Of a DNA stretch of 64,000 nucleotides, positions 1,145 through 59,409 are shown in pieces. Each line of letters begins with the position of its first letter. Positions within the stretch are counted from its first letter, which is position 1. The notes under the pieces are model-generated. The model was not told the DNA's origin. It ran no database searches and was given only the letters and a program-made list of their open reading frames with translations. The DNA is taken from assembly GCA_043814605.1 (NCBI GenBank), contig JBDRJV010000013.1, positions 34,471 to 98,470 of the forward strand, in the 5' to 3' direction. This DNA is from Candidatus Omnitrophota bacterium. GTDB taxonomy: Bacteria; Omnitrophota; Gorgyraeia; B26-G9. A program made the position numbers and the translations under genes.

Positions 1145-1202
1145 CCTGCTTTGGATTTTTTCTTAAAAAGTTCTTTCTTTTTAAGCTATTTAAAAATAAA
1201 AA

Positions 1203-1240
1203 AAGCGTTCTTGCGAACGCCGCTTTGTTCATAATAAAAA
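1203..1240 (-). terminator. Intrinsic terminator hairpin downstream of the radical SAM gene
   Basis: gcgttcttgcgaacgc hairpin; on minus strand followed by T-run (ttttttt). Confidence 0.45.
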
Positions 1241-1484
1241 CACTAACATTGTGTTTTGCCCCTCAACTTGAGTATACCACAAAACCATTAAATCAACAAA
1301 TTTTTAAGTTTTTTAGTTACTCACAGTTTTTTATTTAGATATTCTAAATTAAATTGAATGATAAATTATGGTTTCTGCTGTTTGTGTTAAGTTGCGGGCA
1401 CAAATCATTATAAAAATTAAAAATTTTTCTGTGATTTTTTCTTCACATCTAGCCTCTTTGTTAAAAAATTACAGAAATTACCGG

Positions 1485-3254
1485 TTATATCGCCTGTTCT
1501 AAAAACAAGGACATCTTCTCCCTTTTTGTTTCTAATAATGAAGTTACATCTTTAATATTTTTTCTTCTCTGTGCTCTTATTTGTTCAGCATTAGCAATAA
1601 ATCCCTCTGCAACCCAATGGTGCAATTTTAAATTACGTAGTTTTGTTATGTATTCTAATGAATAAAAAGACAACATAAATTCCTCTGCCAATTTTTGAAG
1701 CTCACTTGAATCTAAATTATGTGTCTTAATGGGAGGAGCGCTATGCGGGTCATAATTAATCCAATCTTGATTTTGTATTAAACCTGCTTGTTGCATCTGA
1801 GCTGTTAATCTGGTTCCAGGATAAGGAGTTAAGGTAGTTAAATGTAAGATTATCGGCGCGATACTTTTAAGTGAATTAGCATAATCAATACTTTTTTGAA
1901 TAGTCTTTGCATCATCCCCAGGAGCGCCAATCATAAATGCCGCGATAACTGTAATATTTTCTTTATTCAAAAGCTCTACAGCCCTATTAACATTTTCTAA
2001 AACAATATTTTTATCTAAAGACTGAAGTATCCTTTCATCGCCTGATTCAATGCCCATAAATACCGCTCTTATTCCCATTCGCTTTAAATCTTTTACAATA
2101 TTAGGATTCTTGGCGATTATATCTGCCCGAGAATAAATTTCTAATTCTATATCCAACTTCTGTGCTTCGATAATATCTGCAGTTTGAGATACCCATTTTG
2201 CATTACTTGTAAAGTTATCATCTACAACATAAAAATAATTGTATCCACTTTTTTTATTTAAAGCACTCAGCAATTCCGCAAACTGCTCTGGTTTACGTGC
2301 TTTAATTACACGAGAAAAGATTTTTCTTGTTATGCAAAAACTGCATTTACCCGGGCACCCGCGGCTTGCTTCCACGGATATTGCTTTCTTTCCCCTTAAT
2401 CGATATTCTACTGATGATAATAAATCATAAGCTGGTAACGGAAGTCTGGTAAAATCTTCTCTGTCTGCTTCCAGAGTTTTTATAATCTCTATATCTTCTC
2501 CCGTTTGCAATGATTTATTAAAACTTAATCCCGGGATATTTTTTAAATTATTCGCAAATTTATTTCTATTTTTGTGAACATACGCTAAAAGTTTCACGAT
2601 ATTGCACATTGTCCTCTCGCCTTCTCCGTACACAGCAATATCCGCACTCCCTGATTTTAATGCATTTTCAGGCAATACAGTCGCATGTGCTCCGCCCCAA
2701 ACTACAATAGTATCCTTTAATATTTTTTTGATATCATTAGATATTGCAGATGCTATTTTAAAAGATGGGGTAAGAACACTTAATCCTAAAATATCCGGCT
2801 TAAAGTTTTTTATTTTATTTATAACCTCGCTTTTTTTATTTAAATCTGACATGTCTATTACCTGAATTTGCAAATCAATCTTATGCTGCTTTGCCCATTG
2901 CCTAAGTGCACCGGCAATTGAAACTATGCCCAGCGGCAAAAATTTATCTTTATGGTGATGGGTTCCTGCGCCTGCTGTTACAATATCGCTGCGTGGATAC
3001 ACGAGTGATACTTTAATTGTTCCTTTAAAATCTGTAACGCTGATTTCTTTGATATAATTTCTATGCTGATTTTTAAATCCAGAGTTTTTACCAATAATAC
3101 GTTGTAAATTATTTATGTTAAGTTGCGGCGCAAGATATTCTTCCCCCCTGTTTCTTCCCGGAGAAAAATTTTGTGCAAATAAACAATTAGTTAATATAAA
3201 TATTTGCAACATGATAAAAATTGCTGTTTTTTTATATTTAATTTTTTTATACAT
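1485..3254 (-). CDS. B12-binding domain radical SAM protein, with N-terminal hydrophobic leader
   Basis: CPGKCSFC (CxxxCxxC) radical SAM cluster motif, preceding B12-binding-like domain (VSLVYPRSD...GIVSIAGAL); N-terminus LQIFILTNCLFAQNFSPGRNRGEEYLAPQ shared with next gene. Confidence 0.8.
   Translation of the reverse strand: MYKKIKYKKTAIFIMLQIFILTNCLFAQNFSPGRNRGEEYLAPQLNINNLQRIIGKNSGFKNQHRNYIKEISVTDFKGTIKVSLVYPRSDIVTAGAGTHHHKDKFLPLGIVSIAGALRQWAKQHKIDLQIQVIDMSDLNKKSEVINKIKNFKPDILGLSVLTPSFKIASAISNDIKKILKDTIVVWGGAHATVLPENALKSGSADIAVYGEGERTMCNIVKLLAYVHKNRNKFANNLKNIPGLSFNKSLQTGEDIEIIKTLEADREDFTRLPLPAYDLLSSVEYRLRGKKAISVEASRGCPGKCSFCITRKIFSRVIKARKPEQFAELLSALNKKSGYNYFYVVDDNFTSNAKWVSQTADIIEAQKLDIELEIYSRADIIAKNPNIVKDLKRMGIRAVFMGIESGDERILQSLDKNIVLENVNRAVELLNKENITVIAAFMIGAPGDDAKTIQKSIDYANSLKSIAPIILHLTTLTPYPGTRLTAQMQQAGLIQNQDWINYDPHSAPPIKTHNLDSSELQKLAEEFMLSFYSLEYITKLRNLKLHHWVAEGFIANAEQIRAQRRKNIKDVTSLLETKREKMSLFLEQAI
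3121..3230. repeat. ~110-bp direct repeat copy 1 (encodes shared N-terminal leader; second copy 4501..4610)
   Basis: 3121-3200 nearly identical to 4501-4580 (gcggcgcaagatattcttcccccctgtttcttcccggagaaaaattttgtgcaaataaacaattagttaatat). Confidence 0.85.
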
Positions 3255-3274
3255 AATTTTTTTTTAATAAATTT

Positions 3275-4639
3275 TTAAATAGAGCTTGCAATAAATTTAA
3301 AATAATCGACTATATTTTCAGCCAATATTACCGATCCAGAACCAACAGGTTCTTTTAATAATATTTCTCCTTCAAAATTATTAAATATGGAGTCTTTTTT
3401 CGGATTAAGTTGCTTACGTTTATAAATTTTAACCTTACGGCCAATAAGATATTCCGAATAATCAACAATAATATCAGATTTATGTATTTGTGATTCTAAA
3501 ACTAACGGACCTTCTTCTAATTCCGCTAAAGCAAAAACTTCTAGGTTTTCTCTTGGCGTATATCCACGGGTTTGCCGATCGCGTTCTTCCTTTTTAAATA
3601 AACGCGAAAAAGCATCATCAATCACACTAATTTTTAACGCCGCTAATTTTTCCAGTTCTGGCCAAAACCAGGCGTATGCTCCTTCAAGCACAAATGCATC
3701 ATATGCGGCGGCATTAATTGCCAGGGTAAAACTAATTTCTTGTGAAATCTTATCAATTTTTTGCAATCTAACTGGTTCTCCAGCTAATAATTTTTGTACT
3801 TGTTCTAACAAAAATTCTTTATTTAAAGCATCTGCACCTTTGAGGTTTTTCTTCCTACGCATTTGCCTTGAGTGTTTATAATCATCTGTTTCTAGTTTTT
3901 TCCAAAATTTTTGTCTTGTTCTCAATGCTTCTGTAATCAATGCTTTTGTAATCCCGGTTTTTCCGGCAGCTACAATTCCGCAAATCGTAATTAACTTTTT
4001 TATATTATCAGGTTGATCTAATTCATAATACATTTCAATAATCAGCCGTGCAATTTGAGAAGTCACTTGCTTTAGTTCATGATAATAAAATTCAACGCGA
4101 GTCATATTATATAATTCTATCCCCGCTTCTTGCTTAAATATATCTTGCGGCACATCTATTTCTTTGATTAATTTAAATTTATCTTTATTCCACTCTGGCA
4201 CATACATTGGCACCCAAATCCCAGGATAAGATCGACTAATTGACATTTCTGAAATATCTGGAATAAACATAAATCCTTTATCAATCTCTGATAAATTCAC
4301 TTTTCCCTGCTTAAGTGCGAGATTAATTTTATCTGTCATGATATGAAAAATATTTTCTTGAATATTTTTAGCTGAGAGTAAAAGCTGGCGATAATCTTCC
4401 TTGATGCTAGCAACAGCTGCATTAGCAGTATATTGTTTTTCTAAAATTGCACTAATGCGGTCAATCTCAAAATATGCCCGCACATTGTTATTTAGCAGTA
4501 TTATCTGCGGCGCAAGATATTCTTCCCCCCTGTTTCTTCCCGGAGAAAAATTTTGTGCAAATAAACAATTAGTTAATATCAGTATCTGCAAAATAACAAT
4601 AAATAATATTTTTTTTATATAGATTATTTTCATAAACAA
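3275..4639 (-). CDS. P-loop NTPase (kinase-like) protein with the same N-terminal leader
   Basis: Walker A ICGIVAAGKTGITKAL; VIDDAFSRLF...R..R resembles uridine-kinase/zeta-like kinases; N-terminus ILQILILTNCLFAQNFSPGRNRGEEYLAPQ. Confidence 0.45.
   Translation of the reverse strand: MFMKIIYIKKILFIVILQILILTNCLFAQNFSPGRNRGEEYLAPQIILLNNNVRAYFEIDRISAILEKQYTANAAVASIKEDYRQLLLSAKNIQENIFHIMTDKINLALKQGKVNLSEIDKGFMFIPDISEMSISRSYPGIWVPMYVPEWNKDKFKLIKEIDVPQDIFKQEAGIELYNMTRVEFYYHELKQVTSQIARLIIEMYYELDQPDNIKKLITICGIVAAGKTGITKALITEALRTRQKFWKKLETDDYKHSRQMRRKKNLKGADALNKEFLLEQVQKLLAGEPVRLQKIDKISQEISFTLAINAAAYDAFVLEGAYAWFWPELEKLAALKISVIDDAFSRLFKKEERDRQTRGYTPRENLEVFALAELEEGPLVLESQIHKSDIIVDYSEYLIGRKVKIYKRKQLNPKKDSIFNNFEGEILLKEPVGSGSVILAENIVDYFKFIASSI
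4501..4610. repeat. ~110-bp direct repeat copy 2
   Basis: See 3121..3230. Confidence 0.85.
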
Positions 4640-4939
4640 TTACCAAAATAATAATTTTATAATCCCTAGTTAAAAAGTATTAAAGTTTACCATATTTTTA
4701 CTAATAATGCAAAAAAATACTTAAGTTAATATTTTTCTTAATTCATTTAATTACAATAGATTATAAATCAGCTGTAACTTTTTATCTCTTGTTTCTAAAT
4801 AAAAATAACTCTTTTTGTTTCAAAGACTTAAGTAGATTTTCTTGACTTTATGCCTACAAAAGATTTAAAATCAAATCGTAGCCGCGAACTTACCTCGTAA
4901 GTTAAGAAAATTAAAATAAATTCGCAGGTTAAAAAAAAG

Positions 4940-5893
4940 GTGACTCTAATGAAAACAGCATACTGTGAAATCGGTGCTTTTGTTGGTAATCCTAATCATC
5001 GTCCGCCGAATGCAAAGGAAATCCGTGAATATGAACAGTTAATCGCCAGGCATATTCATTCAGTTTTATTTTTTTGGGCCTGGGGTGAGGGGGCTTTTCC
5101 CAAAACTGCTTTAAAGGATATCCGTTACCACGACGGATATGATACAGGGATAAATTTACATGTTACTTGGGAACCCTGGAAACGTAAAGGGTTTAATGAT
5201 AATTCCTACAGCCTTAATAGCATTATTAAGTGTGAACATGACCTATATATTTCAAAGTTTGCTCGTGATTGCCGTGACTGGAGTGATGTTATCCGCCTGC
5301 GCTTTGCGCATGAAATGATCCATTTTAATAATCCATCAACCCAAGGCTGGTACCCCTGGCAAGATAAACCGGAGGAATATGTAAGAGCCTGGAAACATAT
5401 ATACGGTATATTTAAAAATGAAAAAGCAGATAATGTGGAATTTGTCTGGGCACCATTAAATTACCCTGACTGGTTCGATGTCTTAGAGCAATATTATCCG
5501 GGAAAAGAATATGTAGACTGGCTGGGTATTGACGGTTACAACTGGGGCGAAGACGGTAAGCCGGCCTGGCCTTATGATCAAAATTTTAGCGATTTATTTT
5601 ATCCTATGTACCATGCTTTTATTGATCATCCAGAAATTTTCGGACAGAAAAAGATAATGATATCTGAAACAGCCAGCCCTAAAGATAATCAATTTGGGGG
5701 AAATAAATCCACCTGGATTGAGGATATGTTCAAGCGCCTTAAAAACGAATATTCAAAAATTGAAGCATTTTACTGGTTTAATGCAAAAAAGGAAAAAGAT
5801 TGGCGGGTAAACTCATCTCCCCTAAGCCTGGCTGCTTTTAAAAACAGCATCCAAGACCCTTATTTTACTTCTCATATTATTCGCAATCTTTAA
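4940..5893 (+). CDS. Glycoside hydrolase family 26-like (mannanase-like), no signal peptide
   Basis: RFAHEMIHFN matches GH26 acid/base motif (R-x-x-HE-x-N); second glutamate in MISETA; W/Y-rich TIM-barrel motifs WLGIDGYNW. Confidence 0.55.
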   Translation: MTLMKTAYCEIGAFVGNPNHRPPNAKEIREYEQLIARHIHSVLFFWAWGEGAFPKTALKDIRYHDGYDTGINLHVTWEPWKRKGFNDNSYSLNSIIKCEHDLYISKFARDCRDWSDVIRLRFAHEMIHFNNPSTQGWYPWQDKPEEYVRAWKHIYGIFKNEKADNVEFVWAPLNYPDWFDVLEQYYPGKEYVDWLGIDGYNWGEDGKPAWPYDQNFSDLFYPMYHAFIDHPEIFGQKKIMISETASPKDNQFGGNKSTWIEDMFKRLKNEYSKIEAFYWFNAKKEKDWRVNSSPLSLAAFKNSIQDPYFTSHIIRNL

Positions 5894-5960
5894 ATCAGGA
5901 ATCACTGTTTAATTAAAAAGTTTCTCTCTTTGCTTTTAATAAATATTGTTGAAATACTTA

Positions 5961-7438: not shown

Positions 7439-7564
7439 TATGTTTACATTATACTATTTTTCTTTAAAAACAGTATCCCAGACATTTGTTTTACTTCTCA
7501 TGTTATACTGAAACCGTGAATAAAGTAAAATTCTGTTATTTAAAATTTTAGTTTGTATAGATTC

Positions 7565-8691: not shown

Positions 8692-9405
8692 TTATAGTGT
8701 TATTAAATCTCTTACTTTAATATTAATAAATTTATCTTTATAAATTTTTCTAAAAATTTTTTCTGCATGTCTTCCAGAACAATGCGTGGGGCCAACTTTT
8801 TGAACCCCCAGCTCTTTAAACTTGTCCGCAACTGTCTTGATTTCATTTAACGAACTATGCATCAAATGAAAACCGCCTAAAACGGCATAGATTTGTTTGT
8901 TAGGAAATTTTTCTTTTGCATATTCTACAATTTTCATAATTCCCGGATGCGCACATCCAGTGATAATACTTAATCCTTTATTTGTATCAACCATCAAAGC
9001 TTGTTCATAAATTTCTTTATCTTTATAATAACTTTTTATTTCTCCAGTTACATAAATATTTTCAGAGATTTTTTTAAAATCATAACTTTCAATTAAATTA
9101 CCTCTTCGCGCGTTTACATTAGTTTTAAATTGATTACTAAATCCAGGGCAGCTATACACATTTATTCCTGTTTCTTGTGCGAGGATTTCCCATAACCCCC
9201 CGGTATGGTCCCAATGGTCATGCGAAATTACAATGTGTTTTATATTTTTAATATCTATATCCATTTTACGCATATTTGAAAATAATATTTCTGCTTTAGA
9301 AAAAGTATCAAATAATATATTTTCACCGATTAAAAATGCCAGGCCCCAGTTTTTTCTAAATCTTTGCCATGGGGTTGAGCCTTTGGCAATTATTGTTATA
9401 TCCAT
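8692..9405 (-). CDS. MBL-fold metallo-hydrolase
   Basis: HDHWDHTGG (HxHxDH) motif. Confidence 0.8.
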   Translation of the reverse strand: MDITIIAKGSTPWQRFRKNWGLAFLIGENILFDTFSKAEILFSNMRKMDIDIKNIKHIVISHDHWDHTGGLWEILAQETGINVYSCPGFSNQFKTNVNARRGNLIESYDFKKISENIYVTGEIKSYYKDKEIYEQALMVDTNKGLSIITGCAHPGIMKIVEYAKEKFPNKQIYAVLGGFHLMHSSLNEIKTVADKFKELGVQKVGPTHCSGRHAEKIFRKIYKDKFINIKVRDLITL

Positions 9406-9408
9406 TAC

Positions 9409-9792
9409 TTAATCCTTTAATAAATAATTCGCAATTGCTCGATAGAGAGTACTCACAGCTAAAATAAAACAATGCTGATGGTTTTCCGGTAAATCCTTTA
9501 TCATCATTTTTACTTGTTGTGGCGAAATGCTTAATGCCTGATCAACAGTTTTTTTATGCGCTAACCGGGCGGTAGTTTCTGCACAAATAATTGTGGCCAT
9601 ACACCCAAGTTCAGTATAAAATTTTATATCCTCAATAATACCATTCTTAATACATAAATAAAATTCAAGCTCATCTCCGCAAGGGCCTTTTATTATTGCC
9701 GCAGCATCCGGAGCATTCATCCGTCCTGAATATTTTGTATTTTTTGCTATTGCCATTATTGAAGGTGAGTAAATTTGTTGATCTTTTTTCAT
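9409..9792 (-). CDS. NifU/IscU-like Fe-S scaffold domain protein
   Basis: GPCGDELEFYL ... LGCMATIICAE three-Cys pattern of NifU N-terminal domain. Confidence 0.55.
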   Translation of the reverse strand: MKKDQQIYSPSIMAIAKNTKYSGRMNAPDAAAIIKGPCGDELEFYLCIKNGIIEDIKFYTELGCMATIICAETTARLAHKKTVDQALSISPQQVKMMIKDLPENHQHCFILAVSTLYRAIANYLLKD

Positions 9793-9827: not shown

Positions 9828-10445
9828 CTATTTTCTTGCCTGAATAACAATAAATCCCCCCTTACCAAATCCCTTGAGTGGTTTTTGCACTTTGGCTACT
9901 TTTACTGGTAAATCAAATATTGTTTGATAATAATTAAAATTACTAAATCCGTAGTTTTGTAATATTTGTTCTATTCCTGGAATATTAAAAAATTTTGCAT
10001 GTTTATAAAATAGGCTTTGTTTGCCTTGATAAAATTTTCCTAAAAAACTATCTTTATCAATAATACCAACAATAATTTGGCCTTTATTTTTTAATATCCG
10101 GTATACTTCTTCTAATACCCTGCCAGGATTCTGCATAAAACAAAGACTAATAATAATTATCGCATAATCAAAAGTTTTATTTTTAAACGGTAGGCTTTCT
10201 GCTTTAGCTACAGATACCCTTACCCCTTTTTGTGCAGCTTTTTTAAGCATTTTAACTGAAAGATCAATCCCTGTTTTTACATTTAAAGCTGCCGCAAATC
10301 TGCCTGTACCTACACCGATTTCTAATCCCTTGCCCTTTTTGGGCAAAACTCTCATGAGGGCTTCCAATTCAGACAGATAGGCAAATTTATTTCTATCATA
10401 CCAAGAATCATATTTTTTATAATGAGTGTCAAAAATATTTTGCAT
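9828..10445 (-). CDS. Class I SAM-dependent methyltransferase
   Basis: LEIGVGTGRF motif I. Confidence 0.75.
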   Translation of the reverse strand: MQNIFDTHYKKYDSWYDRNKFAYLSELEALMRVLPKKGKGLEIGVGTGRFAAALNVKTGIDLSVKMLKKAAQKGVRVSVAKAESLPFKNKTFDYAIIIISLCFMQNPGRVLEEVYRILKNKGQIIVGIIDKDSFLGKFYQGKQSLFYKHAKFFNIPGIEQILQNYGFSNFNYYQTIFDLPVKVAKVQKPLKGFGKGGFIVIQARK

Positions 10446-10449
10446 GTTT

Positions 10450-10815
10450 TTATTCTGCTTCTGGATTAAATTTCTTTTCTAATTTGGTTAAAAGTTTTAC
10501 TATTTGCTTGTTAATTTTATACAATTGGGACAATCCTGATTCTGCCATAGCGTTATTGTTTTCGTTTTTATCGTGAATGATTTGTTTTACCTGCCAATGC
10601 ATTTGGCAATAAATCTTTTCAAGCTCATTTACCTGAGGTAGATGCGCATATTTTTTCATCCCTTCCTGGTATAACCATTTGCTCAAAATATATTTTTCAC
10701 AGGAAACTGCCTGTTCTTCGCTAATATATTCTCCCCCATCAAGAAAGCATCTTAATCTCACGCTCCAAACTACGTGTTCTGTTAATTGATTCATAAAATT
10801 AATTGTTTTAGCCAT
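10450..10815 (-). CDS. Small His/Cys protein, CZB (chemoreceptor zinc-binding)-like
   Basis: H..W..RL...L.....SCEKYILSKWLYQEG....H resembles CZB H-x3-C-x-L-G-x-W pattern; weak. Confidence 0.3.
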   Translation of the reverse strand: MAKTINFMNQLTEHVVWSVRLRCFLDGGEYISEEQAVSCEKYILSKWLYQEGMKKYAHLPQVNELEKIYCQMHWQVKQIIHDKNENNNAMAESGLSQLYKINKQIVKLLTKLEKKFNPEAE

Positions 10816-10848
10816 ATTCCGAAAAAACCCCTGATCAAGCTTAATAAA

Positions 10849-11208
10849 TTATAAGTCCAAGTTTCCCCACCATCCATCATAGAACCTTTTCAGGTACTCG
10901 TAAAATTCTTCATCCATTGTATTTCTCTTTACATCTTTTTCTTTAAACGAATATTTATAACCAGCGCAATAGCTCATCAGAACATCATTTGCCTGAGCTA
11001 TTTTTTTAAACATTTCCTCGCATTCTTTTTTCTTCTCACCTCTACATTTGTCAGGATGATATTTAATGGCAAGTGTTCGATACGCATCTTTTATTTTATT
11101 CAAAGTTGCATATTCATCTAAGTCCAATATTTTTCTCGATGCATCAATTTGCATAAAATTTGCCATTTTATTTCCTGATTTTATATTTGCATTGCAAAAT
11201 TGAATCAA
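10849..11208 (-). CDS. DnaJ (J-domain) protein
   Basis: YRTLAIKYHPDK (HPD motif). Confidence 0.8.
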   Translation of the reverse strand: MIQFCNANIKSGNKMANFMQIDASRKILDLDEYATLNKIKDAYRTLAIKYHPDKCRGEKKKECEEMFKKIAQANDVLMSYCAGYKYSFKEKDVKRNTMDEEFYEYLKRFYDGWWGNLDL

Positions 11209-11213
11209 TTATT

Positions 11214-12116
11214 TTAATTGTGTTTTCTACTTTTACTATGGTGATATAATAAAACAATATCTCCAATGTTTGAATTAACCTTTTTTGCAATCACCGCACA
11301 TTTAGCTATAAACATAAAAAATACCGGCCTTTTACTGTTTGACAATGCTTCAAAATTCCCCTGCCCCTTACTAATTATCATATCAGCATTATTATAAATT
11401 TTTAAAAACTTTTTTGAACACAATCTAAGGACAGTTCCCGGAGCATCACTGCCGCTGGAAATAACCTCAGCAGTTTTATCAATCCCGCAAACAAGTGCAT
11501 CTTTTATTAAAGCATCATTAATCACTGGTTTTTCTTTTACCGCATATATAATTTCTTTAGTCTCATCCCCTCTCTTTATTTCTTCAATCAAAACACGGTC
11601 AAATACTGTTTCTCCTGCATTATCCGCTAAATAGAGAATAGTTTTTGCACGCTGTAACTGATAAGCAAATTTTCTAAAGCCAAAAATATTCTTGTTCTCT
11701 TTTTTAATAATTTGCTCTTCCTCATAAAGCAATTTATCCAGCTCTTTATCTACTTCTAAATGATTTTTTGCGCCATAGTCTATAATATTACCGATTATAG
11801 CTATCTCAACAGCAGTTAATAGTTTGATTTTCGAACATGCCACCTTTTTTTTTAATTTATCATAAATACGCAGCCCCACATCATTGCTCTTTTGTTTTAT
11901 CTGCGCGTACAAATCTGGGGTTCTAGTATTTTTTTTTAAAATTTTATTAACCATGCGGGCTACTTCCGGAGGAGAAACAGATAAAGACAATTTGGGTAAA
12001 GTCCCGGCTAGGGCATCAATAACTTTTTTCTGTTTTTTTTCGTTAAGGCCTGCCATCCGAGCCATTTCAATCGCTTGTCTAAAAAAACAAGGAATACAAT
12101 CTAAATATATTTTCAT
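11214..12116 (-). CDS. DUF89 (ARMT1-like damage-control phosphatase/methyltransferase family)
   Basis: Size and ISKGQGNFEAL motif typical of DUF89. Confidence 0.55.
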   Translation of the reverse strand: MKIYLDCIPCFFRQAIEMARMAGLNEKKQKKVIDALAGTLPKLSLSVSPPEVARMVNKILKKNTRTPDLYAQIKQKSNDVGLRIYDKLKKKVACSKIKLLTAVEIAIIGNIIDYGAKNHLEVDKELDKLLYEEEQIIKKENKNIFGFRKFAYQLQRAKTILYLADNAGETVFDRVLIEEIKRGDETKEIIYAVKEKPVINDALIKDALVCGIDKTAEVISSGSDAPGTVLRLCSKKFLKIYNNADMIISKGQGNFEALSNSKRPVFFMFIAKCAVIAKKVNSNIGDIVLLYHHSKSRKHN

Positions 12117-12159
12117 TTTTATTTCTCATTATAAAAATTAACATCACTATATGAAAATC

Positions 12160-12768
12160 CTATTCTTTAAAAATTGAAAATAGCCTGCGAGGAATTCCTA
12201 TGGCCAAGCTATCCCTTCTAATATTCGCATACTTACGGGAATCATTACAGCCAAAAGAAATATTAATATCATTCTCTAAATAAGTATTGACAGCAATGCC
12301 TCCGCAAATCGACATCATTGAGGACAAAGAAAAATTTAATCTTTTTCCTGTAAGAATATTATATTTTTTTATCAATTCCATAACATCCTCAGGCGGCAAA
12401 TAAGATATGATCATGTCTGGGAAATCATCTGTGTTTAATCCAATACACTCCACGGATTTTTTTAATGCAGAAATTTGCCGAAACATATCTATAAAAACAA
12501 AATTTTTTGTTTTATGTTTGTTATTACATTTTTTTAAAATATTGTTTTTTAAAGTATTTCCCCATCCAAATACATGTTTTGCACCCAGGCAAGATATACT
12601 TTTTCGATTTAACAACACCGGCTCAAACAATGCTTTATGCGTAGCCTCGCAAAATTTAATATTTTTCAATGGTTTAATTCCATTAAGCTTAGGATTTTTC
12701 TTATAGAATTTAACTTTAATCCAATGATTTCTAAGTCTATCTAAAATATTTTGATTAATTTTTACCAT
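12160..12768 (-). CDS. DUF169-like protein
   Basis: ~200 aa Cys-containing protein; DUF169 is a classical neighbour of MinD/Mrp-ferredoxin ATPases; assignment from memory of family. Confidence 0.35.
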   Translation of the reverse strand: MVKINQNILDRLRNHWIKVKFYKKNPKLNGIKPLKNIKFCEATHKALFEPVLLNRKSISCLGAKHVFGWGNTLKNNILKKCNNKHKTKNFVFIDMFRQISALKKSVECIGLNTDDFPDMIISYLPPEDVMELIKKYNILTGKRLNFSLSSMMSICGGIAVNTYLENDINISFGCNDSRKYANIRRDSLAIGIPRRLFSIFKE

Positions 12769-12783
12769 TATGCTATCCTTCCC

Positions 12784-13665
12784 TTAAGTGTTTATTTCTT
12801 GTTTTAACCTTTCCCAAATATCAATAATTGCTTTTTTTACCGGAGAATTATCATATTCAATGATTGTTTTTCCTTCTACCATTGCCTTAACTACTGATTT
12901 ATCAAAACAAATTTTTCCACTTAGTTTAATGTTATTTTCAAAACAAAATTTTTCAATTTTTTCAGACATATTAATATTTAGATCATATTTATTTATTATC
13001 AACCTTACTGGAACATTAAAGTGCTGTGTAACTTCAATCACACGCATTGCATCATGCAAACCAGAAAGAGTTGGTTCAGTTACTACTAAAGCAAGATCTA
13101 TACCGGATAAAGAAGCAATAACCGGACATCCAATACCTGGAGCTCCATCAATAATAACCCAATTATAATTATTTTCTTCTGCCAATTGCTTTGCTCTATT
13201 CCGTACTAAAGATACAAGCTTTCCTGAATTTTCCTCAGCAATACCCAGCTTCGCATGTACCATGGGACCAAAACGAGTATCCGAAATAAACCAATGCCCG
13301 GAAAGGTTTTCTTGCATAATAATCGCTTTTTTAGGACAGATAAAACTGCAAAACCCGCATCCTTCACAATCAATAGGATCAATCATAAAACTCTTTTCTA
13401 TAGATGCATTATTTTTTACAGCAAAAAAACGACAAACATTAAAACAATTTCCACAATTATTGCATAGGCTTGGGTTAATTCGCGCTGTTTTGCCGCTTCT
13501 AAATTCATACTTTTCTTTTATTTGTGGATGAAGTAAAAGATGCAGATCCGCAGCATCTACATCGCAATCTGCAAAACAAGCGTTTTTAGCTAAAGCTGCT
13601 AATGCTCCGGTAAGAATAGTTTTACCTGTTCCGCCTTTGCCACTAATAATAACTATTTGTTTCAT
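12784..13665 (-). CDS. MinD/Mrp/ParA-type P-loop ATPase with two 4Fe-4S ferredoxin motifs
   Basis: GKGGTGKT deviant Walker A; CNNCGNCFNVC and CEGCGFCSFICP ferredoxin motifs. Confidence 0.8.
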   Translation of the reverse strand: MKQIVIISGKGGTGKTILTGALAALAKNACFADCDVDAADLHLLLHPQIKEKYEFRSGKTARINPSLCNNCGNCFNVCRFFAVKNNASIEKSFMIDPIDCEGCGFCSFICPKKAIIMQENLSGHWFISDTRFGPMVHAKLGIAEENSGKLVSLVRNRAKQLAEENNYNWVIIDGAPGIGCPVIASLSGIDLALVVTEPTLSGLHDAMRVIEVTQHFNVPVRLIINKYDLNINMSEKIEKFCFENNIKLSGKICFDKSVVKAMVEGKTIIEYDNSPVKKAIIDIWERLKQEINT

Positions 13666-14514
13666 TTACTTAGTTCTCAAAATTTTTTGAAACATTGTTA
13701 AAAAACTATTTTTATATTCTGGAAATTTTTCTACTATGGAAATGCCCTGAGAATAGCTTTGAGCAATTTCTTTTTTAAAAGGAATCTGCATCAATACTGG
13801 AATTTTTTCTTTTTCGCAGTATGTTTCTGTTGCCTTATCCCCTAGGTCAGAACGATTGATTAAAACCCCAAATGGTATTTTTAATTTTCTTACAACTTCA
13901 ACTGCTAAAATTAAATCGTTTAAGCCAAAAGGAGTAGGTTCGGTTACCAGTAAACAAAAATCACTCCTTCTTAAAGAAGAAACTACCGGGCATGATGTTC
14001 CCGGGGGGACATCAATAATCACTGTTTTCTCTGGATTAATATATTTTTTAACTTGACGGATTAAAGGCGGAGCCATTGCTTCGCCTACATTAAGTTTTCC
14101 GTGGATAAATTCTATGCCCCGACAAACACCTTTTTCTACAATACCAATTTCCTTATTGACTTCGGTGATTGCTTTTTGAGGGCAAAAAAAACTGCAGGCT
14201 CCGCAACCATGACAGAGATTTGTAAAAACCAGAATACTTCCTTTTCTGTTTTCCTTAGCTGGTAACACAGCGAATGCATTATACGCACATACTTGGCGGC
14301 ACCTGCCGCAGTAAATACATTTTTTTTCATCAATTAGCGGCACTGGAATATATGCTTTTTCCTGCTCTTTTATTTCCGGATTTAAAAAGATATGTGCGTT
14401 AGGCTCTTCTACATCACAATCAAGAAATTGCACATTTTGTATCGACAAAGCTAAATTCACTGCAACTGTAGTTTTTCCGGTTCCGCCTTTGCCACTGGCA
14501 ACAGAAATAATCAT
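13666..14514 (-). CDS. MinD/Mrp/ParA-type ATPase with 4Fe-4S ferredoxin motifs (paralog)
   Basis: GKGGTGKT; CIYCGRCRQVC, CHGCGACSFFCP. Confidence 0.8.
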   Translation of the reverse strand: MIISVASGKGGTGKTTVAVNLALSIQNVQFLDCDVEEPNAHIFLNPEIKEQEKAYIPVPLIDEKKCIYCGRCRQVCAYNAFAVLPAKENRKGSILVFTNLCHGCGACSFFCPQKAITEVNKEIGIVEKGVCRGIEFIHGKLNVGEAMAPPLIRQVKKYINPEKTVIIDVPPGTSCPVVSSLRRSDFCLLVTEPTPFGLNDLILAVEVVRKLKIPFGVLINRSDLGDKATETYCEKEKIPVLMQIPFKKEIAQSYSQGISIVEKFPEYKNSFLTMFQKILRTK

Positions 14515-14525
14515 TTAAATTCCTT

Positions 14526-36999: not shown

Positions 37000-37008
37000 A
37001 ATTTAAAG

Positions 37009-38454: not shown

Positions 38455-38606
38455 AATTAATCAATCTTAATCCTATGTATTAATAAACTTTTCTGCGGCT
38501 TTTACCTGTGCCTGAAATGGATATCCATGATAAAATTTTATCATCAACTTAAAAAAGATTCAATTTATTTCATCTAAAAACGCAACAATAGCAAATAGAT
38601 ATGATT

Positions 38607-39161: not shown

Positions 39162-40217
39162 TTATATAGATTTTTCCGGACTTAATGAATTAATTATTTC
39201 TTTAGATTGTTTCCTGAGCCTAATAGTACTCTCTTGCTCTTTGTCAACCCCTAAAGCTTTGAACAGACTTATATTTTTGTACCAAACAGCCGTTCTCCCT
39301 AAGCCATCATCGAGCGTTATTTGCTGCGCTCCACTCTCGACTGCTGCAAGAAAGTTGCGCCGCAAATTTTCGCTATGCCAATCATTCCACATCTCTTGAT
39401 CCAGCCTCACAAATCCAACGTCAAATAAAGGAGCAAAAACTCCTTCTACTTTTCTCCTACTACCCAAACTATTGCCCTTATCAAAGATTATCTGATTTTT
39501 ATACATTCCCTTTTTCCGATCATAATTTGTCGAATATTCAATATAAACCCTATCTAAAGGATTGTACACATAGTTTCTTCCAGCTAGCAAAAACAAATCC
39601 GGATTTTTTTCCATATCCAGAAAGTCAAAGGCGGACGGTAAATACGAACCACGATTTTTAAATTTATAAGGATGGTTGTGCAGATTAAAAACCCCTCTGC
39701 CTTTAAATTGGTCCAGCACCGACAAAAGGAGCTTTTCTCCTGCCACAAACCCTTCTCTCTCAGATTCGTTTATAGCAAACAAAATATATTTATCCCCATG
39801 TCTTACCATAAAAAAGAAATATTCTTTATCGACTGTATCCATAAAATTTCTTATTTCCTTTTCGAGCGGCAATGCTTTGAATATGTATACAGAATTTGGC
39901 GGGTCTTTTACGTGGTCAAACAGGTCCTTAATGCCTACAAGTTTAACAAAATCGTTCTTGTCGACAATCTTTAACTCATTTTTTTTGAGGTCGCTAATCA
40001 TTTTCTGCAAAGACTCTGAATCTTCTTGAATTTTATCGAAGGATTCTGCAACATCTACTAACGAAATAGCGGGCGCTAAAAAACTTTGATCCGTTCCTTG
40101 CTCCAATGATGCCGCAAACAATCCATTCGTATGCGCAATCGCTTGAATTAACAACCAGATAAATACGCTACGCCATTCTAATCTCTTAATTATAATCCTA
40201 TGCTTGTTCCAATCCAA
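39162..40217 (-). CDS. Hypothetical protein with N-terminal signal/anchor
   Basis: ORF with hydrophobic N-terminus; no recognised motif. Confidence 0.3.
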   Translation of the reverse strand: MDWNKHRIIIKRLEWRSVFIWLLIQAIAHTNGLFAASLEQGTDQSFLAPAISLVDVAESFDKIQEDSESLQKMISDLKKNELKIVDKNDFVKLVGIKDLFDHVKDPPNSVYIFKALPLEKEIRNFMDTVDKEYFFFMVRHGDKYILFAINESEREGFVAGEKLLLSVLDQFKGRGVFNLHNHPYKFKNRGSYLPSAFDFLDMEKNPDLFLLAGRNYVYNPLDRVYIEYSTNYDRKKGMYKNQIIFDKGNSLGSRRKVEGVFAPLFDVGFVRLDQEMWNDWHSENLRRNFLAAVESGAQQITLDDGLGRTAVWYKNISLFKALGVDKEQESTIRLRKQSKEIINSLSPEKSI

Positions 40218-57348: not shown

Positions 57349-59409
57349 ATGGCACGCATAACAAATCATAACCTGTTGATAAATAAAAAGATAGCAATAT
57401 TTTTAATCCAGGCTATTTTATTAGGAAATATTGCCTTTGTAAAGCCGTCCAGTACTTTGGCTGCAGAAAACCAGAACTGTCTTTCCCCTCAGATTCTTGT
57501 GGGCTCAGAAATTTTAGCTCCAGCTTTTAATAAGCATAATGCGATTATTGATTATATATTTAACCGGGATATTATTCTGGTTAAAGATGTGCCTGATTTT
57601 GTGAATATTTTACAAAACGCACAAATAACAAATAGAGAAAAAATGCACGGTATTATTCAATATTACACAAAAGAGCTTAACATAATTTCAGAAAAATTAT
57701 TTATTCTATCTGACTATGCTCAAGTAAATAATATTAATCTGCCCGATTTCTTTCATAAAATAGGCGTTATTCAAGGGCAAATATCTATGATCAATGAAGC
57801 TTTGCAACAAGCCAAGCAATATACTGACTCTCGAGAATTAGCCAAACTCTTAACCAATATAACCACTTATTTAAACAATCATAAATATAATTATCAGGAT
57901 TTACCCCGGCTTTTATATGAGCACAATAAACTTTTTACAGAACAGGAACAAACACAAAATTTAATCAAAGAAATTTTTGTACGCATTCTTTCTTTAGAAA
58001 CAGTGGAGTTATTTTATTCTATAAGCAGTGATTCTTGCAATCTTAGTGAAACTATTAAAGCAGTTTTTCCTATCTTGGCGGATTTATCTGCTCAAGACAA
58101 TACTACGGATTGGGTAAAACCTCATCTAGACAAAATTGATAAAACCATTACTTTACCCTCAGAACCTGTAATTATTCCGGGGTTTAAAGAAAACTGGATT
58201 GTTTTTATACTTGAGATCGTAAAGAATAGCCTAATGTCAACATTACATACCCCCAATCCACAAATAGAAATTATTCTTGAGCAGGACGATAAAAAAGTTA
58301 CGCTTTCAATTAAAGATAATGGCGCAGGATTTCAAAACCAGGAAATATATTTTGGTAAAAGCACAAAATCCAATTTAAGCCGGGGAATTTTTCTGGCCAC
58401 AATTAAATCATACCTTGAACAAAACTATAACGGGAGCCTTATGATAACTTCATCAAAGAATACAACAAAAGTAAAAATTGAAATTCCTAAATCAAGCTTA
58501 CTCCAAATAAATGAAAATATTCCCCTAAAACAGCTTTCTAAAATTTCTCTTAATACAGAACTCTCTCGGCAATTTGAATATGATGAATTTGGCCAGCCAA
58601 TTATTTATACAATAAAAGATAAAAACAATGGAAATCATAAAGCAAAAATATCCTTTGATTATGAAATTTTTGCAAAAGAAAATGAAAATTACGAGGTATT
58701 AATAACTGGGTATTTAAGGGAATCTCTTGGTTTTCCCGCATTAGCCAATCAGGCCCAAAGCACATCCCCGGTTCTAATATCATTTTTTACGATAAACAAA
58801 TCCGGTATTATCCAGGATGTTACCGAAATTCGTAACGAAATTTTACAAAAAAACGGCATCGCAAATTTTATTAATCAAAAAATCAAAGATATCGCCAGGG
58901 TTTTTACAAAAGCCCATCGACAATCTTTAAATATTATCAACCTTCCCACAATAGAAGCATTATGCACTGTATTATTAAAATACGGAAGGTATTTTCCGGA
59001 AAATAAAATCATTAAAAATCATTTTAGAATATATGATAAAATCTACAACTTAAAAACCGGTAAAATAAATAAAAAAATGGTCGAAGGATATGTAGGTAAA
59101 AATCTTGTTCCAGCTAATGATTTTGAAGAAAATCTCAGAAGAAGTTTTATCCATCGGTTAGCGCAAAGCTTGGAAGAATTAGAAAAATATGGGATAAACA
59201 TAAGCGCACTGCTAGAAATTCAAAACACTCCGATTATAAAACTTTACAAAAAAATGGGGGCGGAAAACATCCGGGTAATTTTTTCCCAAAAAATTAATAC
59301 AAAATATAATAAAATATTTAATAGCATTGAAATTCACGCACAATTAGTATTTACCAAAATCGAGATTGAAAAAAATGGCTATAACTCATTGATTGATCAA
59401 GCGATATAA
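57349..59409 (+). CDS. Large protein with N-terminal signal/anchor and central GHKL (HATPase_c)-like ATP-binding domain
   Basis: KKVTLSIKDNGAGFQNQE...G.G.GLF-like. Confidence 0.45.
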   Translation: MARITNHNLLINKKIAIFLIQAILLGNIAFVKPSSTLAAENQNCLSPQILVGSEILAPAFNKHNAIIDYIFNRDIILVKDVPDFVNILQNAQITNREKMHGIIQYYTKELNIISEKLFILSDYAQVNNINLPDFFHKIGVIQGQISMINEALQQAKQYTDSRELAKLLTNITTYLNNHKYNYQDLPRLLYEHNKLFTEQEQTQNLIKEIFVRILSLETVELFYSISSDSCNLSETIKAVFPILADLSAQDNTTDWVKPHLDKIDKTITLPSEPVIIPGFKENWIVFILEIVKNSLMSTLHTPNPQIEIILEQDDKKVTLSIKDNGAGFQNQEIYFGKSTKSNLSRGIFLATIKSYLEQNYNGSLMITSSKNTTKVKIEIPKSSLLQINENIPLKQLSKISLNTELSRQFEYDEFGQPIIYTIKDKNNGNHKAKISFDYEIFAKENENYEVLITGYLRESLGFPALANQAQSTSPVLISFFTINKSGIIQDVTEIRNEILQKNGIANFINQKIKDIARVFTKAHRQSLNIINLPTIEALCTVLLKYGRYFPENKIIKNHFRIYDKIYNLKTGKINKKMVEGYVGKNLVPANDFEENLRRSFIHRLAQSLEELEKYGINISALLEIQNTPIIKLYKKMGAENIRVIFSQKINTKYNKIFNSIEIHAQLVFTKIEIEKNGYNSLIDQAI

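What the first reader, a model, noticed from the sequence alone, without database searches (positions are those of the whole stretch)
1485..4639. Adjacent radical SAM/B12 enzyme and P-loop kinase-like protein share an identical 35-aa hydrophobic N-terminal leader via a 110-bp direct repeat
Positions 3121-3230 and 4501-4610 are near-identical. They encode ...ILQI(F/L)ILTNCLFAQNFSPGRNRGEEYLAPQ at the start of two functionally unrelated, normally cytoplasmic enzyme types. Neither ORF has an alternative Met before residue ~100. So either both enzymes are membrane-anchored or secreted through a shared signal-anchor (LTNC is lipobox-like but atypical), or a promoter/5'-leader cassette was duplicated and the true starts are non-ATG. 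A B12-rSAM plus kinase pair with a common targeting peptide could mark a compartmentalised or periplasmic modification pathway.
Basis: seen in the sequence. Interest (0 to 1): 0.55.

Follow-up and report, generated by a model that had tools for sequence, protein, structure and literature searches.

The report
Shared signal-peptide leader on two Omnitrophota enzymes
Two neighbouring genes of an uncultured Omnitrophota bacterium, a B12/radical-SAM enzyme and a kinase-like protein, start with the same export-type leader peptide, which also occurs in diverged form on two unrelated proteins nearby, so enzymes that normally stay inside the cell look addressed to the membrane or beyond.

Summary
The repeat is real. 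A 74-nt stretch (3124-3197 = 4506-4579) is 100% identical. It encodes ILTNCLFAQNFSPGRNRGEEYLAPQ at the 5' end of two adjacent minus-strand genes: a class-B radical SAM (589 aa) and a PRK/uridine-kinase-like protein (452 aa). The 19 codons upstream differ at 33% of positions.

The leader is translated. The rSAM has no start codon between codon 16 and codon 85, which lies inside its B12 domain, and NCBI annotates both proteins with it.

It has the three parts of a Sec signal peptide: a Lys-rich start, a 12-residue hydrophobic core and a TNCLFA|Q end. A polar spacer and the motif [YFC]L[AS]P[QA][IL] follow. It is not a lipobox, Tat signal or prepilin leader. No RNA family or significant fold was found.

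Two other proteins in the window carry diverged relatives of the leader (ORF 39162-40217, and an HATPase protein at 57349-59409), similar as protein but not as DNA. So it is not specific to this gene pair. The perfect identity is best explained by recent gene conversion.

The kinase-like part matches an internal module of a giant Omnitrophota protein. Whether the leader is cleaved, and where the enzymes end up, was not tested.

The parts
3124..3197 (-). Perfect-repeat core, copy 1 (74 nt). It covers codons 20-43 plus 2 nt of codon 44 of the rSAM gene and encodes ILTNCLFAQNFSPGRNRGEEYLAP(Q).
4506..4579 (-). Perfect-repeat core, copy 2 (74 nt), at the same codon phase in the PRK/uridine-kinase-like gene.
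3123..3254 (-). Whole leader 1 (aa 1-44). Start region MYKKIKYKK, hydrophobic core TAIFIMLQIFIL, end region TNCLFA, predicted signal-peptidase I site LFA|QN (after aa 27), polar spacer, then YLAPQ.
   Evidence: the cleavage site is an inference from the -3/-1 rule
4505..4633 (-). Whole leader 2 (aa 1-43 from ATG 4633). Start region MKIIYIKK, hydrophobic core ILFIVILQILIL, end region TNCLFA, then the identical spacer and YLAPQ.
1485..3254 (-). Class-B (B12-binding) radical SAM gene, 589 aa (NCBI MFH1459397.1). B12-binding domain aa 105-219, Radical_SAM aa 295-458, cluster motif CPGKCSFC. Homology to leaderless relatives starts at aa 79.
3275..4633 (-). PRK/uridine-kinase-like P-loop protein, 452 aa (MFH1459398.1). 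Walker A GIVAAGKT. Residues 58-432 (numbered from the 454-aa ORF starting at TTG 4639) are 39% identical to residues 828-1197 of a giant Omnitrophota protein.
40065..40217 (-). Diverged member of the same leader family on ORF 39162-40217 (351 aa, no Pfam family): ...RSVFIWLLIQAIAHTNGLFAASLEQGTDQSFLAPAI.
57349..57495 (+). Diverged member of the same leader family on ORF 57349-59409 (686 aa, HATPase_c; MFH1459455.1): ...NKKIAIFLIQAILLGNIAFVKPSSTLAAENQNCLSPQI.
1204..1221 (-). Terminator-like hairpin followed by a T run, downstream of the rSAM gene. This is the likely end of a two-gene transcript.
4654..4683 (-). Promoter-like site (TTAATA-18-TAAAAT) just upstream of the kinase-like gene. This is a consensus match only.

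Best explanation
The repeat is the 3' two-thirds of a translated N-terminal leader of about 44 codons. The leader has the three parts of a Sec-type signal peptide: a Lys-rich start, a 12-residue hydrophobic core and the end region TNCLFA, with a plausible signal-peptidase I site LFA|Q. A polar spacer of about 13 residues and a conserved [YFC]-L-[AS]-P-[QA]-[IL] motif follow.

The leader belongs to a sequence-specific family with at least four members in this 64-kb window. All four sit on proteins that are unrelated to one another. Three of these are of cytoplasmic enzyme type: a B12-radical SAM, a P-loop kinase-like protein and an HATPase protein. The fourth has no recognised domain.

It most likely delivers these proteins to the Sec translocon, and so to or across the cytoplasmic membrane. 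This step is inferred, not shown.

The 100% nucleotide identity of the adjacent pair is a secondary effect. It is best explained by recent gene conversion (or a recent copy) between two leader segments 1.38 kb apart that had already diverged.

The two genes probably form one operon. They look like stand-alone counterparts of the enzyme modules found in the giant, membrane-associated multi-enzyme proteins of Omnitrophota.
For: Shown:
- The repeat and its sharp boundaries: 0 differences in 74 nt, against 18 in 54 nt upstream. The synonymous codon pairs CAA/CAG flank the tract on both sides.
- Translation of the leader is required. There is no start codon in rSAM codons 17-84, the domain homology begins at aa 79, and NCBI calls both proteins with the leader.
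- Leave-out profile tests. A profile built from ORF39+ORF57 finds the two leaders at E 2.5e-5 and 3.4e-5. A profile built from the pair alone ranks ORF39 first (E 0.013). Profiles leaving out ORF57 or ORF39 recover the omitted one as the best non-training hit (E 0.032, 0.0025). Ordinary signal peptides of the window score below 6 bits.
- There is no DNA similarity to ORF39 or ORF57, so conservation there is at the protein level.
- The motif L[AS]P[QA][ILF] occurs 6 times in 16,929 residues, where 0.14 is expected. Five of the six are at aa 41-56 of the four leader proteins (the pattern was chosen after seeing the data).
- The hydrophobic core is 11-12 residues, and the same type of FA|Q site occurs on an ordinary small secreted protein at 60019-60303.
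- Among the 120 best rSAM homologues, only the Omnitrophota ones (P0002/P0146, P0003) have a hydrophobic N-terminal leader. In that pair the leader is the best-conserved 30-residue block of the protein: 22/30 identical, against 39.5% overall.
- The kinase-like module is homologous to an internal module of giant Omnitrophota protein P0122 (E 9e-54).

From the literature: Omnitrophota giant proteins are multi-enzyme chains containing radical SAM, kinase, HATPase and SecA_DEAD domains. 94% carry a signal peptide or transmembrane helices (bioRxiv 10.64898/2026.06.07.730766; bioRxiv 10.1101/2023.11.21.568195).

Operon: a 20-nt gap between the genes, no terminator between them, and a terminator after the rSAM.
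Against: - Radical SAM enzymes need a cytoplasmically assembled [4Fe-4S] cluster, SAM and a reductant, and P-loop kinases need ATP. Sec export of either has no precedent known to me. The rSAM keeps CX3CX2C and the kinase-like protein keeps its Walker A motif, so they do not look like dead enzymes.
- No signal-peptide predictor was available. Position -3 is Leu, which is allowed but not typical, and ORF57 has a poor -1 residue (Val).
- The leaders of P0002/P0003 are not detectably homologous to the window leaders.
- Gene conversion is inferred from a single genome. A nucleotide-level constraint cannot be excluded, and a second case of leader-limited DNA conservation exists elsewhere: L004 vs L002, 75 of 87 nt identical.
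- None of the four leader genes has a Shine-Dalgarno site, while 27 of 60 genes do.
- The rest of the genome could not be scanned.
Confidence: 0.6

Rival explanations
1. The leader is an uncleaved membrane tether. The hydrophobic helix is not cut off and holds the enzymes at the cytoplasmic membrane. They would work there on a membrane or envelope substrate, either at the cytoplasmic face or, as a type II anchor, outside.
For: From T10 to A27 the stretch is 18 mostly apolar residues, just long enough to span a bilayer. Cofactor needs argue for a cytoplasmic catalytic domain. Several class-B rSAM relatives act on lipids; partial NCBIfam matches include HpnR, HpnJ and the ladderane-lipid rSAM, all far below their cut-offs. 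46% of Omnitrophota giant proteins are predicted to have transmembrane helices and no signal peptide.
Against: The N-terminal flank has 5 Lys (3 in the kinase-like protein) and the C-terminal flank is net neutral. The positive-inside rule therefore puts the N-terminus inside and the enzyme outside, not in the cytoplasm. The strictly apolar core is only 11-12 residues and is followed by polar T-N-C and a small -1 residue, which is the layout of a cleavable signal peptide. A generic anchor would not need the conserved spacer and LAPQ motif.
Confidence: 0.25
2. The conserved 74 nt act as nucleic acid, for example as an mRNA element that controls translation, pausing or localisation, or as a DNA site for recombination. 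The peptide identity would then be a by-product.
For: There are zero synonymous differences in 24 codons, while the flanking conserved codons do differ synonymously. The 3' half of the core is 58% G+C in a 35% G+C genome and contains a GGGGGGAAG run that resembles a Shine-Dalgarno site. In another Omnitrophota pair, DNA conservation also ends exactly at the end of the leader.
Against: No Rfam family matches at E up to 1. Folding energies are not better than shuffled sequence (z from -0.5 to -1.2). The related leaders of ORF39 and ORF57 share the peptide pattern but no DNA similarity. The Gln after the tract and the LQI before it are conserved as amino acids despite codon changes.
Confidence: 0.08
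3. The repeat is a duplicated untranslated 5' leader or promoter cassette, and the real starts lie downstream at non-ATG codons.
For: Neither gene has a Shine-Dalgarno site at the annotated start. The kinase-like gene has a GTG at codon 53, five codons before the homology to P0122 begins.
Against: The rSAM has no ATG/GTG/TTG between codons 16 and 85, and starting at codon 85 would remove the first strand of the B12 domain. The rSAM leader starts 20 nt after the preceding stop codon, which leaves no room for a promoter. Similarity does not extend upstream of the ATG. Both reading frames stay open through the leader and linker. Protein-level relatives exist on two other genes.
Confidence: 0.03
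4. The repeat is an assembly or binning artefact that produced a false duplication.
For: The window comes from a metagenome-assembled genome. No independent reads were available for the repeat region.
Against: The two copies sit in different and diverged contexts, with about 67% identity immediately 5' of the core and unrelated sequence 3' of it. Both reading frames are intact. Independent ENA contigs from another assembly match the neighbouring sequence at 99.8-100%: window 1177-2044 and 58229-59435.
Confidence: 0.02

Closest known systems
Sec-type (signal peptidase I) signal peptides of Gram-negative bacteria
   Same: Basic start region, hydrophobic core of 11-12 residues, polar end region of about 6 residues with Ala at -1, total length 26-27 aa. 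An ordinary secreted protein in the same window ends its signal peptide with IFA|Q.
   Different: The sequence is conserved across unrelated passenger proteins (LxQ in the core, N-x-Phi-F-A at the end). The conserved post-cleavage motif LAPQ(I/L) lies 13-14 residues further on. The passengers are a radical SAM enzyme, a P-loop kinase-like protein and an HATPase protein.
Giant multi-enzyme membrane-associated proteins of Omnitrophota ('Archaeovorins' and related; bioRxiv 10.1101/2023.11.21.568195 and 10.64898/2026.06.07.730766)
   Same: Same phylum. Same kinds of enzyme domains (radical SAM, kinases, HATPase) combined with predicted signal peptides or transmembrane helices. The kinase-like protein is homologous to an internal module of one such protein, P0122.
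   Different: Here each enzyme is a normal-sized separate gene with its own leader. There is no SecA_DEAD or C39 peptidase domain. P0122 joins its modules by Ser runs, not by hydrophobic helices. The papers do not describe a conserved leader sequence in the parts I read.
Sequence-specific leader families shared by unrelated passengers (Tat RR signals, YSIRK-G/S signal peptides, double-glycine leaders, prepilin leaders); from my own knowledge
   Same: A recognisable, conserved N-terminal address placed on otherwise unrelated proteins within one genome.
   Different: None of their defining motifs is present: no RR, no YSIRK, no GG cleavage motif, no G|F...E5. Pfam and NCBIfam models give no match to the leader.
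Viperin (RSAD2), a radical SAM enzyme with an N-terminal membrane-binding helix; from my own knowledge
   Same: A radical SAM enzyme carrying an N-terminal membrane-targeting segment in front of the catalytic domain.
   Different: The viperin helix is amphipathic and binds the cytosolic face of the endoplasmic reticulum. Here the segment is uniformly hydrophobic with a basic N-flank, which is the signal-peptide layout.
Class-B radical SAM enzymes (OxsB, TokK, CysS, AprD4) and uridine-cytidine kinases (UCK2, Udk)
   Same: Domain content and catalytic motifs. These are the nearest solved relatives.
   Different: All NCBIfam matches are far below their cut-offs, so no specific function can be assigned. 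None of these relatives has an N-terminal hydrophobic leader.

Membership tests
Sec/signal peptidase I signal peptide | Positively charged start region | tested here: met
   MYKKIKYKK (5 Lys) and MKIIYIKK (3 Lys); ORF39 has KRLEWR and ORF57 has INKK.
Sec/signal peptidase I signal peptide | Hydrophobic core of about 7-15 residues | tested here: met
   TAIFIMLQIFIL and ILFIVILQILIL. The best 12-residue Kyte-Doolittle means are 2.56 and 3.43.
Sec/signal peptidase I signal peptide | Polar end region with small uncharged residues at -1 and -3 | tested here: inconclusive
   In TNCLFA|Q, -1 is Ala (typical) and -3 is Leu (tolerated, not typical). ORF39 has LFA|A. ORF57 has AFV|K, which is poor.
Sec/signal peptidase I signal peptide | Called by a trained predictor, or cleavage shown experimentally | not testable with these tools
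   SignalP, DeepTMHMM and proteomic data were not available.
Lipoprotein signal peptide (lipobox) | [LVI][ASTVI][GAS]C with an invariant Cys at +1 | tested here: not met
   LTNC has Asn at -1. The Cys is replaced by Gly (ORF39) and Ile (ORF57) in the related leaders.
Tat signal peptide | Twin-arginine motif (S/T)RRxFLK in the start region | tested here: not met
   No RR in any of the four leaders. No NCBIfam or Pfam match.
Prepilin (type IV pilin) leader | Short basic leader, G at -1, F/M at +1, E at +5 | tested here: not met
   No G|F junction and no Glu in the hydrophobic segment. No match to prepilin models.
Signal-anchor (uncleaved N-terminal transmembrane helix) | Apolar stretch of about 18-20 residues or more, and no usable cleavage site | tested here: inconclusive
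   An 18-residue stretch if T, Q, T, N and C are counted; the strictly apolar core is 11-12 residues, and a plausible cleavage site is present.
Class-B (cobalamin-binding) radical SAM | N-terminal B12-binding domain, radical SAM core and a CX3CX2C motif | tested here: met
   PF02310 at 67 bits (cut-off 32.1), PF04055 at 74 bits (cut-off 29.5), motif CPGKCSFC.
PRK / uridine kinase family | PF00485 above its gathering score, and a Walker A motif | tested here: met
   26.6 bits against a cut-off of 22; GIVAAGKT. The udk equivalog scores 39 bits against a cut-off of 220, so it is not a uridine kinase orthologue.
Omnitrophota giant multi-enzyme proteins | A single polypeptide of 10,000 aa or more tiled with many enzyme domains | tested here: not met
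   The two genes encode 589 and 452 aa. Only the kinase-like module is homologous to part of such a protein.
Cis-regulatory RNA or known RNA family | Match to a covariance model, or a fold more stable than shuffled sequence | tested here: not met
   No relevant Rfam match at E up to 1. z-scores from -0.47 to -1.20 on both strands.

The most novel reading that the evidence does not exclude
The leader is a sequence-specific address of an Omnitrophota-specific route. This route would take cytoplasmic-type enzymes (radical SAM, kinases, HATPases) to the cell envelope or out of the cell, for example as effectors of these host-dependent or predatory ultra-small bacteria. It might be served by the divergent SecA-like domains of their giant proteins.

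On this reading the stand-alone 'leader + enzyme' genes are the unfused building blocks of the giant multi-enzyme proteins. The leader-coding DNA would also act as a portable homology arm through which enzyme bodies are exchanged. Two observations fit this: the perfect 74-nt repeat here, and DNA conservation that ends exactly at the leader's end on a tRNA-integrated mini-element in another Omnitrophota genome.
Probability: 0.15. Interest if true: 0.8.

Novelty: new variant of a known kind. Interest (0 to 1): 0.5.

Why it matters
Two preprints report that the giant proteins of Omnitrophota string together metabolic and regulatory enzymes that are predicted to be membrane-bound or extracellular, and both call these predictions uncertain. 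The genes here show the same paradox in small form: a 45-residue leader in front of an ordinary-sized radical SAM enzyme and a kinase-like protein.

That makes the question testable with simple reporter fusions, metaproteomic N-termini or heterologous expression, which is hard to do with 10,000-100,000-residue proteins.

If export were confirmed, a Sec-exported radical SAM enzyme would be unprecedented to my knowledge. It would point to enzymes that act in the envelope or in another cell.

If instead the leader is only a tether, the finding is a modest addition: a phylum-specific leader family homogenised locally by gene conversion.

Tried and rejected
- Lipobox, Tat and prepilin readings: their defining motifs are absent.
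- RNA element: no Rfam match and no significant fold.
- Promoter/UTR cassette: rejected from the start-codon map and the extent of similarity.
- Suspected pseudogene. The rSAM had no self-hit, so I suspected NCBI treated it as a pseudogene. This was wrong. The exact 589-aa protein is MFH1459397.1; its 90% cluster is simply represented by a 197-aa fragment.
- The exact motif elsewhere. A degenerate DNA pattern for FSPGRNRGEEY found nothing in genome contigs or metagenome contigs.
- The protein word-index search with the 51-aa leader found nothing, but it also failed to return P0001, which contains the motif. That negative is therefore uninformative. Two earlier attempts failed on input limits.
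- Relatives of the kinase-like protein. There is only a self-hit in the 5.8-billion-protein index. The exhaustive search found 24 hits, of which only P0122 and P0123 go beyond the generic kinase fold. Locus scans returned only the P0122 contig or nothing.
- Homology between the window leaders and the leaders of the Omnitrophota rSAM homologues P0002/P0003 is not supported by cross-profile searches. Only the general layout and a look-alike LAPPL/LGPSL are shared.
- The AlphaFold model of the kinase-like protein was unusable (mean pLDDT 40), so no fold search was run.
- The C-terminal and N-terminal extra domains of P0002/P0003 are not present in the window in any frame.
- There is no tRNA or integrase next to the window pair and no compositional anomaly.
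- Codon rarity in the core is unremarkable.
- A literature search for membrane-anchored radical SAM enzymes gave nothing useful.


Full report
**1. The observation**

The window is A+T-rich (35.4% G+C). It comes from a metagenome-assembled genome labelled Candidatus Omnitrophota bacterium, on a contig of 111,642 bp.

Two co-directional minus-strand ORFs lie 20 nt apart. ORF 1485-3254 (589 aa) has a B12-binding domain, a Radical_SAM domain and a CPGKCSFC cluster motif. ORF 3275-4639 (454 aa; NCBI start at ATG 4633, 452 aa) has a PRK/uridine-kinase domain and a GIVAAGKT Walker A motif.

The repeat finder reports 3124-3248 vs 4506-4630 at 86% identity over 125 nt. blastn and a local alignment show that this consists of two parts. 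One is a 74-nt core (3124-3197 = 4506-4579) without a single mismatch. The other is a more diverged 5' part that reaches the start codons.

Codon by codon, codons 1-19 have 18 differences in 54 nt and a one-codon indel. Codons 20-43 plus two bases of codon 44 have none. Codon 44 is Gln in both genes but CAA in one and CAG in the other, and after that the proteins are unrelated.

The similarity does not extend upstream of the ATG.

**2. Is the leader translated?**

Yes, as far as sequence can show.
- The rSAM has in-frame ATG, GTG or TTG only at codons 1, 15, 16 and then 85. Its homology to leaderless B12-rSAM relatives begins at residue 79, so starting at codon 85 would cut into the B12 domain.
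- The rSAM leader begins 20 nt after the stop of the upstream gene, so it cannot be a promoter cassette.
- NCBI annotates both proteins, and the ORF57 protein described below, with the leader.
- I first suspected the rSAM was treated as a pseudogene because it had no self-hit. This was wrong. Its cluster is represented by a 197-aa fragment.
- The kinase-like gene does have a GTG at codon 53, just before its conserved module starts, so a leaderless isoform is conceivable for that gene only.

**3. What kind of leader is it?**

The layout is: a basic start (MYKKIKYKK or MKIIYIKK), a 12-residue apolar core (TAIFIMLQIFIL or ILFIVILQILIL), a polar end region TNCLFA with Ala at -1 and Leu at -3, then Gln.

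This is the three-part layout and the length (27 and 26 aa) of a Sec/signal-peptidase I signal peptide. A small, ordinary secreted protein in the same window (60019-60303) ends its signal peptide with IFA|QEEN.

Other readings fail:
- It is not a lipobox. Asn is at -1, and the Cys is not conserved in the related leaders.
- It has no twin arginine and no prepilin junction.
- It matches no curated N-terminal signal family in Pfam or NCBIfam.

No trained predictor was available, so cleavage is an inference.

**4. It is a leader family, not a feature of this gene pair**

A tblastn search of the window with the leader picked up the N-termini of two further ORFs:
- 39162-40217 (351 aa, no Pfam family), with ...WLLIQAIAHTNGLFAASLEQGTDQSFLAPAISL.
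- 57349-59409 (686 aa, HATPase_c; MFH1459455.1 'ATP-binding protein'), with ...IFLIQAILLGNIAFVKPSSTLAAENQNCLSPQILV.

The four align almost without gaps from the 'LxQ' in the hydrophobic core to a [YFC]L[AS]P[QA][IL] motif at residues 41-51.

Leave-out profile searches against all 667 ORFs of the window and the fetched loci support real relatedness:

| Profile built from | Best hit outside the training set | E-value |
|---|---|---|
| the pair only | ORF39 | 0.013 |
| pair + ORF39 | ORF57 | 0.032 |
| pair + ORF57 | ORF39 | 0.0025 |
| ORF39 + ORF57 | the two leaders of the pair | 2.5e-5 and 3.4e-5 |

Ordinary signal peptides of the window score below 6 bits.

The motif L[AS]P[QA][ILF] occurs six times in the 16,929 residues of the window's 60 likely proteins, where 0.14 is expected. 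Five of the six are at residues 41-56 of these four proteins. The pattern was chosen after seeing the data, so the formal probability is optimistic.

The ORF39 and ORF57 leaders share no DNA similarity with the pair. The family is therefore conserved as peptide.

Ordinary signal peptides in the window sit on envelope-type proteins: a TPR lipoprotein, a TamB-like protein and small unknown proteins. The leader family sits on enzyme-type proteins.

**5. Why 74 perfect nucleotides?**

Conserved residues outside the tract differ at synonymous sites in three of eight cases. At that rate, about 20 synonymous sites without any change is unlikely (roughly 1e-3, my estimate).

The family as a whole shows no nucleotide conservation, no RNA family matches, and predicted folds are no better than shuffled sequence. 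Recent gene conversion, or a recent patch copy, between two already diverged leader segments 1.38 kb apart is therefore the simplest account.

A nucleotide-level role is not excluded. The 3' half of the tract is 58% G+C with a GGGGGGAAG run.

The two copies are in the same codon phase. Recombination between them would therefore delete the body of the kinase-like gene and leave an intact leader-rSAM gene.

**6. Relatives elsewhere**

- rSAM. The nearest homologues, P0002/P0146 (46% identity) and P0003 (39%), are also from Omnitrophota. They also begin with a signal-like peptide, M..YVRNMFIRAV..GL...PLQGVSAS, followed by ...TLAPPLF or ...CLGPSLI. None of the other 118 best homologues has an N-terminal hydrophobic leader.
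- Leader homology. Profile searches do not show these leaders to be homologous to the window's leaders.
- Leader conservation. In that pair the leader is the best-conserved 30-residue block of the protein (22/30 identical against 39.5% overall). For a signal peptide that is unusual.
- Kinase-like protein. It is nearly an orphan. Only itself was found in the indexed search and nothing in two locus scans.
- Giant-protein match. The exhaustive search found that residues 58-432 match residues 828-1197 of P0122 (39% identity, E 9e-54). P0122 is an Omnitrophota protein of more than 2,459 aa that fills its whole contig. A second match is to part of P0123, which also carries a methyltransferase and a SecA_DEAD domain.

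**7. Context from the literature**

Two preprints describe Omnitrophota giant proteins as chains of enzyme domains, including radical SAM, kinases, HATPase, methyltransferases and divergent SecA_DEAD. 94% carry a predicted signal peptide or transmembrane helices, at roughly one helix per 370-1,000 residues. Both preprints note that the predicted extracellular position of cytoplasmic-type domains is doubtful.

The window shows the same combination at the scale of single, normal-sized genes. One of them is homologous to a module of such a giant protein.

My inference is that these genes are stand-alone counterparts of giant-protein modules. I could not test whether the hydrophobic segments inside giant proteins are of the same leader type. 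P0122 has none and joins its modules by Ser runs.

**8. Mechanism, with steps marked**

Shown: a shared, translated, signal-peptide-like leader; family membership of four proteins; the sharp identity tract.

Likely: the two genes form one operon. The gap is 20 nt, a promoter-like site lies at 4683-4654 and a terminator at 1221-1204.

Inferred:
- The leader takes the proteins to the Sec machinery.
- It is probably cut after LFA.
- The polar spacer plus LAPQ(I/L) is a second signal or docking motif of unknown partner.

Main difficulty: a radical SAM enzyme and an ATP-dependent kinase have no obvious way to work outside the cytoplasm. An uncleaved tether is the main rival. However, the positive-inside rule would still place the enzyme outside.

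**9. Verdict**

The 'shared targeting peptide' reading is supported. The lipobox, UTR-cassette and pathway-specific readings are not.

It is a new variant of a known kind: a sequence-specific signal-peptide family on cytoplasmic-type enzymes. It fits a puzzle already reported for this phylum and offers a small, testable model for it.

The function of the rSAM and kinase-like pair remains unknown. Its nearest characterised relatives are only generic: OxsB, TokK, CysS, AprD4 and UCK2.

Noticed in passing
L004 9343-12672 (ENA ERZ27247128 k141_1758029); also L001, L005 and L002: The Omnitrophota rSAM homologue P0146 sits on what looks like a 3.2-kb element integrated in a tRNA gene. The order is tRNA-Ser(GGA) 9343-9431, an integrase-like ORF (to 9959), the leader-bearing rSAM 10001-12598, then an exact 19-nt repeat of the tRNA 3' end (TCCCTGCCTCTCCGCCATT) at 9415-9433 and 12654-12672.
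   Followed up: partly
L002 786-1035 vs L004 9838-10087; L002 3584-3653 vs L004 12601-12670: P0003 and P0146 are only 39.5% identical as proteins, but the DNA from 163 nt upstream of the ATG to the last codon of the signal-like leader is 84% identical (75 of 87 nt within the leader). The 70 nt after the stop codon are 96% identical. Conservation collapses exactly after ...VSAS, as if the enzyme body had been exchanged between conserved flanks.
   Followed up: partly
L003/L008 (P0122, NCBI MFH1768279.1, contig JBDRDG010000136.1): The partial giant Omnitrophota protein has runs of 3-4 Ser, encoded by mixed codons, at aa 178, 349, 582, 836, 1198, 1269, 1763, 1936, 2170 and 2216. The module homologous to the window's kinase-like protein (828-1197) lies exactly between the runs at 836 and 1198, so the Ser runs look like module junctions. 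The window protein has GSGS at the corresponding C-terminal place.
   Followed up: partly
L007 (ENA ERZ1286166 contig_3503), 10001-14784: P0123 fuses a kinase-like fragment, a methyltransferase and a SecA_DEAD domain. The other SecA parts follow as separate small ORFs. The neighbours are coenzyme A biosynthesis genes (CoaBC parts, CoaE, a PPAT-like gene, PanB). This could be a real giant-type fusion or frameshift errors in a long-read assembly.
   Followed up: no
window 5837-5923 vs 7463-7549: An 87-nt direct repeat at 72% identity. The first copy is the 3' end of the GH26-like gene (…FKNSIQDPYFTSHIIRNL*). The second copy lies in the gap between the GGDEF gene and the next gene and reads FKNSIPDICFTSHVILKP*. 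It looks like the remnant of a second copy of that gene.
   Followed up: no
window 4940-5893 (+): The divergently oriented neighbour has a partial GH26 glycoside-hydrolase match but no N-terminal hydrophobic segment, while the rSAM and the kinase-like protein next to it do have one. This is the reverse of the usual expectation.
   Followed up: no
window 34129-41657: A defence-type island: a TOTE-system protein (AEP-TOTE + ResIII helicase + PLD nuclease, 956 aa), a Schlafen AlbA_2/HATPase_c_4 protein, the leader-bearing ORF39, and a nucleotidyltransferase + HEPN pair. ORF39 contains HNHP...PSAFD, which faintly resembles a JAB/MPN metalloprotease motif; I did not test this.
   Followed up: no
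window: starts of 1485-3254, 3275-4633, 39162-40217 and 57349-59409: None of the four leader-bearing genes has a Shine-Dalgarno-like sequence; their upstream 25 nt are almost pure A/T. By contrast, 27 of the 60 likely genes in the window have one. With four genes this is not significant.
   Followed up: no
L009 and L010 (ENA ERZ928008, run ERR2191545, PRJEB10519): Short contigs from another metagenome assembly are 100% and 99.8% identical to window 1177-2044 and 58229-59435, so the same population was sampled independently. They do not cover the leaders.
   Followed up: yes
tool behaviour: The word-index protein search with the 51-aa leader reported no candidate sharing three 5-residue words, although P0001 in the same database contains 25 identical consecutive residues. 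Negative results from that index for short queries should not be trusted.
   Followed up: no
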